A stretch of 39,017 nt of DNA from a phage, in the sequence record PZ168289.1. One strand, 5' to 3'. Positions 17,460-35,828 of the stretch are shown here, piece by piece (within the stretch, counting starts at the first letter, position 1; each line of letters begins with the position of its first letter). The notes under the pieces were generated by a model, which saw only the letters and a program-made list of their open reading frames with translations, was not told where the DNA came from and searched no databases. The translations under genes were made by a program, and so were the position numbers.

Positions 17460-18093
17460 TTAAATAATATTGATTGAGCTATCGTCGGCCCCATAGTGTA
17501 AGAGGATATAGTCTTTGACTAACATGTCTTTGACCTTAAGTCTATAGCTGTGTGTCGATTAACTGTAGGCCTTTGACTGTAGGCGTTGGTGTCTTATGGT
17601 TGTGACTTATGGTTGTGACTTATGGTTGTGACTTATGGTTGTGACTTATGGTTGTGACTTATGGTTATACAGATAGAGACTCAGAGGCAGACCAATAGTC
17701 CCTACCTATCGTCTCCACCACCACCGATAGTCATGACCTATCGTTGACTTGAGGTATTTACAGCCGGTCCAACCTTATGATAGACTGGGGTAGGGCCTTT
17801 GGTCTGGACTTAAAGAGGGCCTATGGGGAGACTTGAGGTTCTTGAACTGTGAGATGTGGTCTCAAACTTTTGGTCCAAAACTCATCGTCCCTACTGTAGG
17901 ACACAGCCACTGTAGGTCAAGGACCGTAGGTCAGGCGACACTAGGATAGACCAATAAGTAGGATGACCCTAAGTGAGCTTCTATTAAGGTGTTACCTAAA
18001 GTCCTTGACTACAGTAGCTAAGGTCAGTAGAGTGAGTCTTTATCCACGTACTGACCTTAGGTCTTCCGCTCATGAATCGTTACCATGATTGCG
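17460..18093. repeat. ORF-free genome-terminus region with dispersed short repeats (likely holds the collapsed terminal repeat / concatemer junction)
   Basis: No ORF of any size with an RBS; recurrent short motifs (TAGGTCA/TGACCTA variants, TGTAGG); lies between the last late gene and the early promoters, where the T7 ends and terminal repeat map. Confidence 0.5.
17593..17670. repeat. tandem array of a 13-bp unit CTTATGGTTGTGA (5 perfect copies plus degenerate flanking copies)
   Basis: Perfect copies at 17593-17605, 17606-17618, 17619-17631, 17632-17644, 17645-17657; partial copy 17658-17670; in the ORF-free genome-end region. Confidence 0.9.
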
Positions 18094-18252
18094 TTAATTA
18101 CACTGAGACACCAGAGAACATACGAGAGTCTCGACCCACCCGACCCACTGACTTCCAGCAGTAACGCCAGCAGCAAGTAGAACAGCAGCAAGAAACCTGT
18201 ATGTAGCTCGATTGGTCGCCAGAGCTTTAAGTACAGCTTTGGTCTTTGCCAT
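18094..18252 (-). CDS. gp19.5-like small membrane protein
   Basis: 52-aa ORF hand-translated (MAKTKAVLKALATNRATYRFLAAVLLAAGVTAGSQWVGWVETLVCSLVSQCN); AGGAGG 10 nt upstream; last gene after terminase, downstream of promoter 18433-18455. Confidence 0.5.
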   Translation of the reverse strand: MAKTKAVLKALATNRATYRFLAAVLLAAGVTAGSQWVGWVETLVCSLVSQCN

Positions 18253-31162: not shown

Positions 31163-31185
31163 AGTCCCTATAGTGATAGTTAAGG
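31163..31185 (-). promoter_or_regulatory. phage RNAP promoter (gp13 upstream) inside an inverted repeat
   Basis: CCTATAGTGATAGTTAAG at 31167-31184, flanked by GGGCCTATAG (31155-31164) and CTATAGGCCC (31191-31200). Confidence 0.7.
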
Positions 31186-31209: not shown

Positions 31210-33567
31210 TTAGACGGAACGAGCTTTCTTAGCGTATGACGCCTCCCAGCCACACCCAACGATTGACACTGGGGTAGGATAGTCGGACTCTAAGGTTAGA
31301 CTCGTGGTTAATGCGTTACCATTCATAGCGAAGCGATACTGCCCGTCACCAATGTTTGTAGTCCCGATGGTTTGCTGACCAAGGGTGTACCCGTTGAAGG
31401 TATTCACGAACTCCCGCTCACCATTTCTGACAATGAGTCTCAGAGCGCCAGTGTCTTTGTAGTTGACCCAAGCCCGACGAAGCTGTAGACGACCAGTGTC
31501 TTCCGACTGAGTGCCCCTATCATCTTCAATCTTAATCAGGAACCGTGAGAACTTGTAGGACATCAGATAGGGCCGTCCGATGAACACTGTGCGTCCTGAC
31601 CAATCGCCGTTGAGGGTAACCACAGTAGAGATACTAGTCAAGTCCCCAAGGTCCACATAAGCACCCTGACTGTCAATCAGATAGTACCGACCGGGAGACG
31701 GAGCGCTGCCACCATAAGCAGCACCAATGTCAACCGTAGTCTTATGTGTGTCAACGTTGTATGAGCCAATTGGTATTACCATAGACACCTTGGAGTCAAC
31801 GTGGAGTCTATACGGCTCTAATGGAAAGTCAGTTGCCTCCTTGATGAACTTAAGGTGCTCAAGGTCCACGCCGCCTTGGTGCTGACGAACAATGAACATG
31901 GTAGAGCCAATCGACGCAGACGCCAGAATCTTATCAGCTTTAGGGAACTCCCAGTGCGACCAAGAGGCTTGAAGCTGTACGCCGTCCTTAAACAAGAACT
32001 TGTAGATGTAGATTCGGTTGTATGCACCTGTAGAGTTGACGCAGATGTAGTTCTCAGTACCTGTACCTTGAATATCAAACACCCCGTTAGGGATATAGGA
32101 CAGTACGTGACCAGTGGTATCATCGGCATCCTTCACGTCAGACACATCTGCTACAGCGAAGTATCGCTTAATGCTGGTGAATGACCCACGAGGTGCTGAG
32201 AAGAAGACTGAGCGTCCTACAGCGAACGGTCGGGCATTATCTCCTAAGGCAAACTCTGAGCCTACATCAAGCTGGATAGACTTCGAGGTAAGGACCCCTG
32301 AGCTTGTCATCACGAACTGCACCTCATCTGACCAAAGTAGTAGCTGCTCGCTAAACGGAACGGCATACTTAAGGATTGAGATTCTAGGGTGACTTACAGC
32401 TACGTCAATAGGATCATCATCACCTAATGTCGCCACACTCTTAGGGAAGAACGCAAAGTAGCTGGCTGAACGGCTCATGATTACGTTCTCGCCTGACAAG
32501 AACCCCAGCCTATTCCTGTAGAAGAACACATCGTTAATTGTAGCATCCACGAAGCTAGGCATAGGGTTTGTGTCATCATTACCAGCACCACGATTAGACC
32601 AGTCCAGAGTCTTGAACTCAAAGGAGCCATCAGGCTGTCTGACCAGAGCATGTGGCATTGTGGTGGCATCGAAACCAGTGACAACTCCCGGCTCCACTGT
32701 CTCCTTCCACGTCTTAGTGCTGGAGTCATACATCACGTAGTATTCATCGGCGCTACTGTTTGTCTCACCTTGAATCTTAATGATATACCCATTAGGAGCT
32801 GCAAGAGGTAGTTTAGAGATTGTCTGCACAGTGTCTAGGACTGGGCTTATTAGCTGGTTAGCGTAGCCATCCTCCGTCTCCACTGAGTTAATGTCAGTCC
32901 CTGAAGGAGCTGTGATTAGCAGGAATCCAGACCCAAGGTCGAACGTGAAGGTAGGGTAAGCAGCAACAAGAAGGTCTCTCAGAGCCGCACCGATAGCCTG
33001 AGCATCAACCTTAGGAGGGTCATTCTCGGCATCATTACCTGCTGGCAACTTATGCTCTACCTTAACGCCTCCATTTATTCCTACCTTAAGGGTGCGACCA
33101 TACTGTCCACCACGCAGGTTAATTAAAGCACGAGCTTTACGATTATAACCAGAGTGTGCCTTCTCGCTCCCACCTTTGACGACAACCTTACGGTTAACGA
33201 CGAACGTATAGTCTGCCACGGTAACGACACGGATGTCATCTCGTGGGTTGGAGGACTTAACGTAATCTACCGCACCGGACACTGAGTATTGATTGCCACT
33301 CAAGTCAACTACCTGAATGTTGGACCCATTGAACACGATGTAATACTGCTCATGCTCGTCACGGTTAATCAGGTGGAACTTAGGGTTACTCCCAACGTCG
33401 ATGTTAAGACGTCGCTTGAAGACTGTAGGTGGACGCTTCTGGAGGCCATCACTCTCTGATGACCAGCAGTTAACCTGTGCCTCGCCTTGGTCTGAGAACC
33501 TCAGTATATCAGGCTGCTGGCTAATGCCACCTTTAAGATTTTTTATGCTTTGTGTGATAAGCGGCAT
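31210..33567 (-). CDS. tail tubular protein B (T7 gp12-like)
   Basis: Collinear with T7 gp12 (SQSIKNLKGGISQQPD, GLQKRPP, INRDEHEQYY, VTVADYTF.VNR, GRLQLRRAWVNY, IGCGWE). Confidence 0.96.
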   Translation of the reverse strand: MPLITQSIKNLKGGISQQPDILRFSDQGEAQVNCWSSESDGLQKRPPTVFKRRLNIDVGSNPKFHLINRDEHEQYYIVFNGSNIQVVDLSGNQYSVSGAVDYVKSSNPRDDIRVVTVADYTFVVNRKVVVKGGSEKAHSGYNRKARALINLRGGQYGRTLKVGINGGVKVEHKLPAGNDAENDPPKVDAQAIGAALRDLLVAAYPTFTFDLGSGFLLITAPSGTDINSVETEDGYANQLISPVLDTVQTISKLPLAAPNGYIIKIQGETNSSADEYYVMYDSSTKTWKETVEPGVVTGFDATTMPHALVRQPDGSFEFKTLDWSNRGAGNDDTNPMPSFVDATINDVFFYRNRLGFLSGENVIMSRSASYFAFFPKSVATLGDDDPIDVAVSHPRISILKYAVPFSEQLLLWSDEVQFVMTSSGVLTSKSIQLDVGSEFALGDNARPFAVGRSVFFSAPRGSFTSIKRYFAVADVSDVKDADDTTGHVLSYIPNGVFDIQGTGTENYICVNSTGAYNRIYIYKFLFKDGVQLQASWSHWEFPKADKILASASIGSTMFIVRQHQGGVDLEHLKFIKEATDFPLEPYRLHVDSKVSMVIPIGSYNVDTHKTTVDIGAAYGGSAPSPGRYYLIDSQGAYVDLGDLTSISTVVTLNGDWSGRTVFIGRPYLMSYKFSRFLIKIEDDRGTQSEDTGRLQLRRAWVNYKDTGALRLIVRNGEREFVNTFNGYTLGQQTIGTTNIGDGQYRFAMNGNALTTSLTLESDYPTPVSIVGCGWEASYAKKARSV

Positions 33568-33576
33568 GTGCCCTCC

Positions 33577-33804
33577 TTAAATCATACTCATTAGGACGTA
33601 TCCTTCAGCGATGTCACCAACGTCAGCAATGTGGACAACCTTACGCGCTACCTGTTGTCCAGTATACCCGTTGTCCCATTCATTCAGGATAAGCCAATCG
33701 CCAACCTTAAAGTCCCGGTCGTTAAGTCTCAGCTCTGCTGTCTTTAGACCTAGTTGTACCGGACCAAAGTGCTGGCGGTGAATCTTCAGGTTGTGACTAG
33801 CCAT
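33577..33804 (-). CDS. ASCH/PUA-like small protein (DUF3850-type) inserted between tail tubular A and B genes
   Basis: 75 aa; pattern H.LKI....F..V..G.KT.E.R.NDRDFKVGDWL.L.E.D.G.YTG recalls ASCH-like DUF3850 proteins; GGGAGGG RBS; ATG overlaps gp11 stop (TAATG). Confidence 0.65.
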   Translation of the reverse strand: MASHNLKIHRQHFGPVQLGLKTAELRLNDRDFKVGDWLILNEWDNGYTGQQVARKVVHIADVGDIAEGYVLMSMI

Positions 33805-34370
33805 TAGTCCCTCCCGATGTCGGACATCATGTTGTAGCGACCAGTATCCATCTCGTACTCCATAACCTGCTGATAGAGTTCTGCTTCCTGCTCACGGAGG
33901 TATAGCTCTGACTCTGGGCTACCGAAGAACTTAGCGTTGAACTCACGGCTGGCCTTGGTAACGATGTAGTCCCTGAAGACCACAGGCATCTCGGAGAATG
34001 GCTTCATCTCCACAAGCTCTACCGTGATAGGGTCGGTGAAAGTGGTTGACTGAGTGGATAGGTCGTACAGGTATCCACCCATGTTGCTGTAGTAGCTGGT
34101 GGCCCCAGCGGTCATTACACGAAGGTATGACGGCAGGAATCGAATCCTATTGTCTTGGACATCAGGTGTCAGGACAGCAGCTTCGTTGATGTTAAAGTTC
34201 CAGCCTTTAGCTTGGACCTGACGATTGACACGATGCAGGATACGTTGTGCATTCGAGACATCAGCGTTCCCCTCGTCAAGCTGTAGGACTGCTGGTTCAC
34301 CGATAGCAGCTAACATATCGTTGATGGCGTCTAAGTCATCGTTAGCATTCAGTGGAATGTATTGAGCCAT
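33804..34370 (-). CDS. tail tubular protein A (T7 gp11-like)
   Basis: Matches T7 gp11 (AIGEP); start moved to ATG 34370 (MAQYIPLNAND) with GGAGG 5 nt upstream (track start 34400). Confidence 0.9.
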   Translation of the reverse strand: MAQYIPLNANDDLDAINDMLAAIGEPAVLQLDEGNADVSNAQRILHRVNRQVQAKGWNFNINEAAVLTPDVQDNRIRFLPSYLRVMTAGATSYYSNMGGYLYDLSTQSTTFTDPITVELVEMKPFSEMPVVFRDYIVTKASREFNAKFFGSPESELYLREQEAELYQQVMEYEMDTGRYNMMSDIGRD

Positions 34371-34485
34371 ACTCCCTCCTATCTGTCGTAAGGACTGCAT
34401 GGTCCGGTTAATAATATAGTCGCCCAGAAACTAACAAATAGTCCCAAGGCTGTAAGTAAGTAAAACATAATCATCCTCACTCTAA

Positions 34486-34527
34486 GCAAAAACCCCTCAA
34501 GCACCCGAAGGCACCCAAGGGGTTTCA
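34486..34527 (-). terminator. T-phi-like terminator after capsid gene 10B
   Basis: Minus RNA AACCCCUUGGGUGCC-UUCG-GGUGCUUGAGGGG-UUUUUG: 13-bp stem rich in G-U pairs, UUCG loop, U tract; immediately after the predicted 10B stop, as T-phi is in T7. Confidence 0.8.
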
Positions 34528-35805: not shown

Positions 35806-35828
35806 TCTCCCTATAGTGATAGTTTAGT
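35806..35828 (-). promoter_or_regulatory. phage RNAP promoter (major capsid upstream)
   Basis: Perfect core at 35810-35827; ~105-nt leader to capsid ATG 35703. Confidence 0.8.

What the first reader, a model, noticed from the sequence alone, without database searches (positions are those of the whole stretch)
33577..33804. ASCH/DUF3850-like small protein inside the tail structural module
A 75-aa ORF with a strong RBS sits between tail tubular protein A and B genes, which are adjacent in T7. Its sequence pattern recalls the ASCH-like DUF3850 family (PUA-like fold, often nucleic-acid binding). A putative RNA/DNA-binding module in the middle of the late structural operon is unexpected; it could be a regulator, an anti-defence factor or a moron.
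Basis: partly seen in the sequence, partly recalled or inferred. Interest (0 to 1): 0.6.

Follow-up and report, generated by a model that had tools for sequence, protein, structure and literature searches.

The report
Small ASCH/DUF3850 gene between tail genes
A real, conserved but dispensable 75-residue gene for a miniature nucleotide-pocket protein (DUF3850, ASCH superfamily) sits between the two tail-tube genes of this K1F-like phage; public records already annotate it and its function is untested.

Summary

The window is a complete K1F-like (Kayfunavirus) genome. About 155-164 GenBank phage records carry the gene at this site. It is annotated there as 'DUF3850 domain-containing' or 'RNA-binding protein', and as gene 11.05 in phage CR44b (2014). 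It is under purifying selection (dN/dS about 0.12).

It is also dispensable. K1F and about 26 other records have a clean start-to-start deletion, and about 26 more have a T7-like empty junction. In other phages the family sits in replication/recombination regions.

My best reading is a cytoplasmic, non-virion accessory protein with the ASCH Lys-Glu-Arg pocket. It may hydrolyse N4-acetylcytidine-type marks or read modified nucleotides. None of that is tested. Already known; modest interest.

The parts
33577..33804 (-). 75-aa CDS for a DUF3850/ASCH-superfamily protein (8.5 kDa, pI 6.4); orthologue of CR44b gene 11.05
33809..33815 (-). Shine-Dalgarno GGGAGGG for the DUF3850 gene, embedded in the last codons (Gly-Arg) of gene 11; 4-nt spacer to the ATG
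   Evidence: Read from the sequence. The same GGGAGGGACTAATG is kept in the K1F-type empty sites, where it drives gene 12.
33804..34400 (-). Gene 11 (tail tubular protein A / adaptor). The longest ORF is 198 aa; the annotated start in relatives is Met11 (33804..34370, 188 aa). Its TAA stop overlaps the DUF3850 ATG by one base (TAATG).
33571..33576 (-). Shine-Dalgarno GGAGGG of gene 12, starting directly after the DUF3850 stop codon
   Evidence: Read from the sequence.
31210..33567 (-). Gene 12 (tail tubular protein B / nozzle), 785 aa; its allele travels with the DUF3850 allele
34494..34511 (-). T-phi-like hairpin plus T-run between gene 10 and gene 11. Transcripts for genes 11, DUF3850 and 12 must read through it.
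   Evidence: consensus scan only. The position corresponds to T7 T-phi, which I place from general knowledge of T7.
35810..35824 (-). Phage-RNA-polymerase promoter core (reverse complement AACTATCACTATAGG) upstream of gene 10; the nearest promoter upstream of the DUF3850 gene
   Evidence: 11 copies in the window against 0.06 expected, all reading on the minus strand, none between 31181 and 35810.
31167..31181 (-). Next phage promoter core downstream (upstream of gene 13); it marks the end of the gene 11-DUF3850-gene 12 unit

Best explanation
Shown. The ORF is a genuine protein-coding gene for a single-domain DUF3850 protein, a minimal 75-residue version of the ASCH/PUA-like beta-barrel. It retains every residue that is nearly invariant in the family: H4, K7, G19, K21, E24, R26, N28-D29-R30, D36, E42 and G49. 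This set includes the ASCH octapeptide G-x-K-x-x-E-x-R. The gene has no promoter of its own and sits in the late gene 11-gene 12 transcription unit. It is chained to both neighbours by a TAATG overlap upstream and a stop codon abutting the gene 12 ribosome-binding site downstream. It is conserved under purifying selection. Closely related viable phages lack it without changing gp11 or gp12.

Inferred. It is made late in infection, in amounts comparable to the tail proteins. It acts in the cytoplasm rather than in the virion, as an accessory factor that matters only in some hosts or conditions. The Lys21/Glu24/Arg26 cleft probably accommodates a single nucleotide or base. The most likely chemistry is the one shown in 2026 for all 19 ASCH proteins tested: hydrolysis of the N4-acetyl group of cytidine, either free or at position 34 of E. 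coli elongator tRNA-Met, using the Lys/Glu dyad. The alternative is plain binding (reading) of a modified or unmodified nucleotide in RNA or DNA.

I put about 0.5 on 'cytoplasmic nucleotide/nucleic-acid pocket protein, non-structural accessory', and about 0.2-0.25 on the specific ac4C-type amidohydrolase activity.
For: Family and fold:
- Pfam, PHROG and PDB hits.
- AF2 pLDDT 97.6.

Conserved polar residues:
- K21 and E42 are invariant. H4, K7, E24, R26, N28, D29, R30 and D36 are at least 90% conserved across 148 diverse homologues.
- The family has 5324 clusters at 50% identity.
- A fixed set of charged residues in an acidic protein (pI 6.4) fits a specific pocket or active site better than generic electrostatic RNA binding.

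Biochemistry of relatives:
- All 19 tested ASCH proteins, both the GKER and GKTR octapeptide types, removed ac4C34 from E. coli tRNA in vitro.
- The Lys and Glu of the octapeptide were essential (bioRxiv 10.64898/2026.02.27.708502).

Expression context: phage promoters only at 35810 and 36797 upstream and 31167 downstream; coupling signals read from the sequence.

Selection: dN/dS 0.12, against 0.025 for gp11 and about 0.06 for gp12.

Dispensable and non-structural:
- K1F and Zappy have gp11 100% and gp12 97% identical to this phage but no DUF3850 gene.
- 27 records have the K1F-type empty junction and 26 have the T7-like one.
- The CR44b record marks gp11 and gp12, but not 11.05, as found by virion mass spectrometry.
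- In other phages the family neighbours replication/recombination genes.
Against: - No DUF3850 protein has been assayed, and none was among the 19 ASCH proteins tested.
- DUF3850 lacks the C-terminal part of longer ASCH domains. That part carries YqfB Glu74 and TthASCH Tyr81, which help position the nucleoside.
- The DUF3850-specific N-D-R motif has no counterpart in characterised ASCH enzymes, so the substrate may be different.
- I cannot name a benefit to a lytic phage from erasing ac4C on tRNA-Met.
- The CR44b orthologue has lost the N-D-R motif and K7 and has E24D, yet stays intact. Either the pocket is not the whole story or that copy is decaying.
- Late expression is inferred from promoter positions only.
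- Absence from the CR44b virion mass spectrometry is weak evidence for an 8.5-kDa protein.
Confidence: 0.5

Rival explanations
1. Anti-defence decoy. The phage protein uses its PUA/ASCH-type pocket to sequester or destroy a modified mononucleotide alarm signal. An example is the m6dAMP released when T7-like phages degrade the host chromosome. This would blunt Metis / PUA-Cal-HAD-type abortive-infection systems, whose sensor is itself a PUA/ASCH-clan domain.
For: - Metis protects against T7 and is triggered by m6dAMP (10.1101/2025.11.05.686725).
- The gene is accessory with patchy presence, as expected for host-specific counter-defence.
- High late-operon expression would suit a stoichiometric binder.
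Against: - Purely analogical: there is no binding data and no phage inhibitor of these systems is reported in either paper.
- Late (class III) timing is later than ideal.
- There is no significant PADLOC hit and no known anti-defence family match.
Confidence: 0.07
2. Tail-related role: a minor virion component, or an assembly or translation-coupling helper specific to the gp12 nozzle.
For: - It lies between gene 11 and gene 12 and is translationally chained to both.
- The DUF3850 allele co-segregates with the gp12 allele. In L008/L009 gp11 is 100% identical to this phage, but DUF3850 is 68% and gp12 74% identical.
Against: - K1F and Zappy build tails with 97-100% identical gp11/gp12 and no such gene.
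- T7 and 26 T7-like-junction relatives lack it.
- It is not flagged in the CR44b virion mass spectrometry, although gp11 and gp12 are.
- Homologues elsewhere sit in non-structural modules.
Confidence: 0.06
3. General RNA-binding or post-transcriptional regulator. It would bind phage or host RNA without catalysis, for example late mRNA, as the database label 'RNA-binding protein' implies.
For: - PHROG 986 is labelled RNA-binding protein.
- The PUA-like superfamily is typically associated with RNA recognition (PNAS 2025).
- ZmASCH and TRIP4-ASCH bind nucleic acids.
Against: - The label is an inference by homology and was never tested.
- The protein is slightly acidic (pI 6.4, net charge -1) and only 75 residues long.
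- YqfB-type ASCH proteins showed no RNA binding.
- An invariant Lys/Glu pair is more typical of catalysis.
Confidence: 0.2
4. Functionless passenger: a moron dropped into a recombination hotspot, for instance with a homing endonuclease, and kept only because it is wedged between two essential, translationally coupled genes.
For: - Presence/absence polymorphism.
- KM02 carries a 146-aa endonuclease gene inserted at the same junction.
- HNH genes are among the neighbours of homologues.
- The CR44b copy has lost family motifs.
Against: - dN/dS 0.12 over 101 sequence pairs. Synonymous sites are saturated while the family motifs stay intact in orthologues only 68% identical.
- Clean deletions are viable (K1F), so the position does not trap the gene.
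Confidence: 0.1

Closest known systems
PDB 3IUW, 'activating signal cointegrator' NP_814290 of Enterococcus faecalis V583 (structural-genomics DUF3850 structure, function unknown)
   Different: It is a bacterial or prophage-borne protein of 83 residues. It is not in a T7-like late operon and is equally uncharacterised.
Gene 11.05 of Citrobacter phage CR44b and the 'DUF3850 domain-containing / RNA-binding protein' genes of other Kayfunavirus records (FFK3, vB_EcoP_F, ST31, Pkp-1, Salmonella Typhi phages)
   Same: Orthologues at the identical site between genes 11 and 12 with the same TAATG overlap. Identity is 96-100% in about 144 records.
   Different: CR44b 11.05 is only 44% identical. It has E24D and has lost K7 and the N-D-R motif.
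ASCH-domain ac4C amidohydrolases / tRNA ac4C erasers (E. coli YqfB; TthASCH, EOLA1 and TRIP4-ASCH of the GKER octapeptide group)
   Different: It is 25-45 residues shorter and lacks the C-terminal segment carrying YqfB Glu74 and TthASCH Tyr81. It has Glu rather than the Thr nucleophile of YqfB. It has an extra conserved N-D-R motif. Its activity is untested.
ZmASCH (Zymomonas mobilis ASCH single-strand-specific ribonuclease, 5GUQ) and BapA (ASCH-like 5hmC DNA glycosylase)
   Different: 9% sequence identity. Those proteins are roughly two to four times larger with added helices or domains. Nothing here shows nuclease or glycosylase residues.
ParB-CTPase-DUF3850 fusion proteins of prophages
   Same: Same Pfam domain. 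They are phage-enriched and suggested to act in anti-defence or phage-host interaction (PNAS 2025).
   Different: Those are multidomain, CTP-binding and usually next to parA. The protein here is the bare domain.

Membership tests
Pfam PF12961 DUF3850 | Score above the curated gathering threshold over the full model | tested here: met
   70.1 bits against a cut-off of 22.9. Residues 4-73 align to model positions 2-76 of 77.
Pfam PF12961 DUF3850 | Family-conserved residues (H4, L6, K7, G19, K21, E24, R26, N28, D29, R30, G35, D36, L40, E42, G49) | tested here: met
   All are present in the window protein. Conservation comes from alignments of 74 and 148 diverse homologues.
Pfam PF12961 DUF3850 | Same fold as the solved family member 3IUW | tested here: met
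ASCH superfamily (PUA-like clan) | Conserved octapeptide G-x-K-x-x-E/T-x-R | tested here: met
   G19-L-K21-T-A-E24-L-R26, read from the translation.
ASCH superfamily (PUA-like clan) | Pfam ASCH (PF04266) hit and PUA-like beta-barrel fold | tested here: met
YqfB-type N4-acetylcytidine amidohydrolase | Catalytic Lys21-Thr24-(Arg26)-Glu74 | tested here: not met
   Position 24 is Glu, not Thr. The protein ends at residue 75 and the ASCH model is matched only to position 61, so there is no counterpart of the Glu74 segment.
GKER-type ASCH tRNA ac4C eraser (TthASCH / EOLA1 / TRIP4-ASCH) | Essential Lys/Glu dyad of the octapeptide | tested here: met
   K21 and E24 are present. K21 is invariant and E24 at least 90% conserved in the family.
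GKER-type ASCH tRNA ac4C eraser (TthASCH / EOLA1 / TRIP4-ASCH) | Deacetylase activity on ac4C nucleoside or tRNA | not testable with these tools
   Needs a biochemical assay. No DUF3850 or phage protein was in the tested set.
Virion structural protein of T7-like tails | Present in purified particles and required for tail assembly | tested here: not met
   The evidence is indirect. CR44b annotation notes virion mass-spectrometry matches for gp11 and gp12 but not 11.05. K1F and Zappy lack the gene with 97-100% identical gp11/gp12.
Known anti-phage-defence or anti-defence protein families | Significant match to a curated model | tested here: not met
   The best PADLOC hit has E=0.0073 and 14 bits, which is not significant. 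No NCBIfam model matches. No anti-defence library was available.

The most novel reading that the evidence does not exclude
The bare DUF3850 domain is a phage counter-defence factor. It would capture or hydrolyse a modified mononucleotide alarm, such as the m6dAMP produced when the phage shreds the Dam-methylated host chromosome. It would do so by mimicking the PUA/ASCH sensor pocket of Metis / PUA-Cal-HAD-type abortive-infection systems. That would explain why a T7-like phage expresses it at high level and why it comes and goes between closely related phages.
Probability: 0.05. Interest if true: 0.8.

Novelty: already known. Interest (0 to 1): 0.22.

Why it matters
DUF3850 is a very large family that is enriched in phages: 5324 clusters at 50% identity, and 561 GenBank phage records with homologues. 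No member has been characterised.

The Kayfunavirus copy is a convenient entry point for three reasons:
- It is the bare domain.
- It sits in a small, genetically tractable T7-like phage.
- Nature has already made the clean knockout. K1F and Zappy differ at this locus by an exact ATG-to-ATG deletion.

Recent work showing that ASCH proteins erase ac4C from tRNA, and that PUA/ASCH pockets sense methylated mononucleotides in immunity, supplies concrete and cheap assays. As a genome feature, though, it is ordinary and already annotated.

Tried and rejected
- YqfB-type amidohydrolase membership: rejected. The protein has Glu instead of the Thr nucleophile and lacks the C-terminal Glu74 segment.
- Domain fusions as a functional clue: 74 multidomain homologues gave only DUF551 (9), one dATP/dGTP pyrophosphohydrolase and one DUF7415. 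This was not informative.
- Neighbour analysis in 68 non-Kayfunavirus viral loci: it shows early/replication-recombination context but no single recurrent partner. The most frequent families occur only 2-3 times in 130 neighbours.
- PADLOC and NCBIfam: nothing significant.
- Profile search of the PDB by sequence: only 3IUW, so residue-level mapping onto TthASCH or YqfB could not be done by sequence.
- Literature: six papers mention DUF3850 and none is functional. No paper pairs 'Kayfunavirus' with 'RNA-binding protein', and the three Kayfunavirus papers that mention mass spectrometry were not read.
- A promoter of its own: none. Sigma-70-like matches in the region are at background level (7 found against 5.2±2.6 expected) and no phage promoter lies between 31181 and 35810.
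- The antisense ORF 33611..33781 (+, 56 aa) lies wholly inside the gene. I treated it as a by-product of the coding strand and found no evidence for it.
- The placement of KM02 (L010) in the gp12 tree is an artefact of its truncated sequence and was ignored.

Full report
**What is there.** The window is a complete genome of a K1F-like phage (genus Kayfunavirus, Studiervirinae), circularly permuted and reverse-complemented. Its best DNA matches are Kayfunavirus records at 93-97% identity. The reported ORF is exactly at 33577..33804 on the minus strand, with an ATG start and 75 codons. The upstream sequence reads GGGAGGGACTAATGG. This is a 7-nt Shine-Dalgarno (33809-33815) 4 nt before the ATG, and the A of that ATG is also the last base of the TAA stop of gene 11. 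The downstream sequence reads ATT-TAA-GGAGGG-CAC-ATG, so the ORF's stop codon abuts the Shine-Dalgarno of gene 12. The flanking genes are tail tubular protein A (gp11) and B (gp12, the nozzle). This rests on the annotation of near-identical records and on Pfam Tube and Phage_nozzle hits on orthologues. In T7 the two genes are adjacent with 23 nt between them and no ORF.

**Conservation within the family.** An exhaustive profile-free search finds 5324 clusters at 50% identity with E≤1e-3. Across 148 diverse members, K21 and E42 are invariant. H4, L6, K7, G19, E24, R26, N28, D29, R30, G35, D36, L40 and G49 are at least 90% conserved, and the window protein has all of them. G19-L-K21-T-A-E24-L-R26 is the ASCH octapeptide GxKxxExR. 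The protein is small (8.5 kDa) and slightly acidic (pI 6.4). A fixed constellation of charged residues on an acidic scaffold points to a defined pocket or active site rather than electrostatic nucleic-acid coating.

**Distribution at this locus.** tBLASTn finds 561 phage records with homologues. Of these, 144 are at least 95% identical and 155 at least 80% identical, and all the sampled ones lie between gp11 and gp12. A DNA search across the junction finds 164 records covering the whole filled site. The gene is annotated in them as 'DUF3850 domain-containing protein', 'RNA-binding protein' or 'hypothetical protein'. In Citrobacter phage CR44b (2014) it is named gene 11.05.

Orthologues only 68-69% identical occupy the same site, with the same TAATG overlap, on 38-41-kb metagenomic contigs. 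Nei-Gojobori analysis of 15 distinct sequences gives a median dN/dS of 0.12. The values for gp11 and gp12 are 0.025 and about 0.06. So the gene is maintained by selection, though less tightly than the tail genes.

**It is dispensable.**
- The type phage K1F (both independent sequences) and phage Zappy have gp11 100% and gp12 97% identical to this phage but lack the gene.
- Their junction is GGGAGGGACTA-ATG-CCG. This is exactly the filled sequence with everything from the DUF3850 ATG to the gene 12 ATG removed, so the DUF3850 Shine-Dalgarno now serves gene 12.
- Twenty-seven GenBank records have this junction.
- Another 26 records have a T7-like junction TAA-TAGGAGGTGAT-ATG. In these the gp11 Gly-Arg codons are GGTCGA, not GGGAGG. 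They include Citrobacter SH3-5, Cronobacter Dev2/GW1, Shigella SFPH2 and Enterobacter phages.
- In a gp12 neighbour-joining tree the K1F-type empty sites nest inside the filled clade, so they are secondary deletions. The T7-like empty sites interleave with filled ones in the other clade.
- In phage KM02 a 146-aa endonuclease gene has been inserted between DUF3850 and gene 12, so this junction tolerates insertions.
- There is also a mosaic breakpoint. In contigs L008/L009 gp11 is 100% identical in protein to this phage (95% in DNA), yet DUF3850 is 68% and gp12 74% identical. DUF3850 therefore travels with gene 12.

**Expression context.** The phage-polymerase promoter core CCTATAGTGATAGTT (reverse complement AACTATCACTATAGG) occurs 11 times, against 0.06 expected, always reading on the minus strand. 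None lies between 31181 (before gene 13) and 35810 (before gene 10). A hairpin plus T-run at 34494-34511 sits where T7 has T-phi. By analogy with T7, genes 11, DUF3850 and 12 are transcribed late from the gene 9/10 promoters by read-through. They would then be translated as a coupled chain. This is inference from sequence; no expression data exist.

**Is it part of the tail?** Probably not.
- Phages with near-identical gp11/gp12 do without it.
- The CR44b record marks gp7.3, 8, 9, 10A, 11, 12, 14, 15, 16, 17 and 17.01 as 'matches in mass spectrometry analysis', but not 11.05. This is weak evidence for so small a protein.
- In 68 other viral loci its homologues neighbour NinG, primase, Dam methylase, HNH, RusA, Gam and an exoribonuclease, which are early replication/recombination genes.

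**How it most likely works.** No DUF3850 protein has been assayed. The characterised relatives show the following:
- YqfB hydrolyses N4-acetylcytidine with Lys21/Thr24/Arg26/Glu74.
- ZmASCH cleaves single-stranded RNA, and BapA is an ASCH-like 5hmC glycosylase.
- A 2026 preprint shows that all 19 ASCH proteins tested removed ac4C34 from E. coli tRNA in vitro. This includes the Glu-type (GKER) octapeptide group to which this protein belongs. The octapeptide Lys and Glu were essential.

The window protein is not YqfB-type, because it has Glu24 and no Glu74 segment. It does keep the Lys/Glu/Arg triad. My best explanation is therefore a cytoplasmic, late-expressed accessory protein whose K21/E24/R26 cleft takes a single nucleotide. 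It would most plausibly hydrolyse an N4-acyl-cytidine-type mark, or else simply read a base in RNA or DNA.

The caveats are real. The C-terminal part of ASCH is missing. The DUF3850-specific N-D-R motif has no known role. I see no obvious benefit to the phage. The CR44b orthologue (44% identical) has lost K7 and N-D-R and carries E24D.

**Most novel reading not excluded.** Two recent preprints show that E. coli Metis / PUA-Cal-HAD systems abort infection when a PUA/ASCH-clan sensor binds m6dAMP released by phage-driven chromosome degradation. T7 is among the phages affected. A highly expressed phage PUA-like pocket protein could act as a decoy for such signals. This is analogy only. The family's abundance in temperate phages argues against it as the general function. 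I give it about 5%.

**Verdict.** The finding is real and the interpretation correct. The feature is already annotated in well over a hundred public genomes and was named in 2014. What remains open is the function of the whole DUF3850 family. This locus, with its natural clean deletion in K1F, is a good experimental handle for that question. Interest is modest (0.22).

Noticed in passing
window 17576-17679: Tandem array of a 13-nt unit (GTGACTTATGGTT, about 6-8 copies). It lies in the non-coding gap between the gene-19.5-like ORF (18094..18252, minus strand) and the early region. This is probably next to the physical genome ends and terminal repeat, which would mean the window is a circularly permuted assembly (family D1).
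   Followed up: partly
window 989, 6676, 9474, 10346, 12104, 15168, 18437, 23460, 31167, 35810, 36797 (start positions): Eleven copies of the phage-RNA-polymerase promoter core CCTATAGTGATAGTT (reverse complement AACTATCACTATAGG), all directing minus-strand transcription, against 0.06 expected by chance.
   Followed up: yes
window 33804 (gene 11 / DUF3850 boundary), compared with L008/L009 4001: Sharp mosaic breakpoint. gp11 is 100% identical in protein (95% in DNA) between this phage and two metagenomic contigs, while DUF3850 drops to 68% and gp12 to 74% immediately downstream.
   Followed up: partly
L010 (Escherichia phage KM02) 1740-2180: A 146-aa 'endonuclease' gene is inserted between the DUF3850 gene and gene 12 and overlaps the gene 12 start. 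The same junction therefore also receives a probable homing endonuclease.
   Followed up: no
L092 (Citrobacter phage CR44b) 22053-22277: The orthologue 'gene 11.05' is only 44% identical. It keeps the N-terminus and the GDW...EWDNG.TG core but has lost K7 and the family N-D-R motif and has E24D. This suggests relaxed or altered constraint in that lineage.
   Followed up: partly
window 34371-34400: The longest ORF for gene 11 starts 10 codons upstream of the start annotated in relatives (Met11, MAQYIPLN...). The 188-aa form is conserved, and the extra 10 codons are probably not translated.
   Followed up: partly
GenBank records MT350292 (Enterococcus phage EFA-1) and PV615262 (Acinetobacter phage vB_Aba_01KA): EFA-1 carries a 100% identical DUF3850 protein. 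vB_Aba_01KA matches 86% of window 1-25000 at 93% identity. Both look like enterobacterial K1F-like genomes, so their host labels (a Gram-positive host, and Acinetobacter) are doubtful.
   Followed up: no
window 33611-33781 (+): A 56-aa antisense ORF lies entirely inside the DUF3850 gene. No evidence supports it, and it is most likely a by-product of the coding strand.
   Followed up: no
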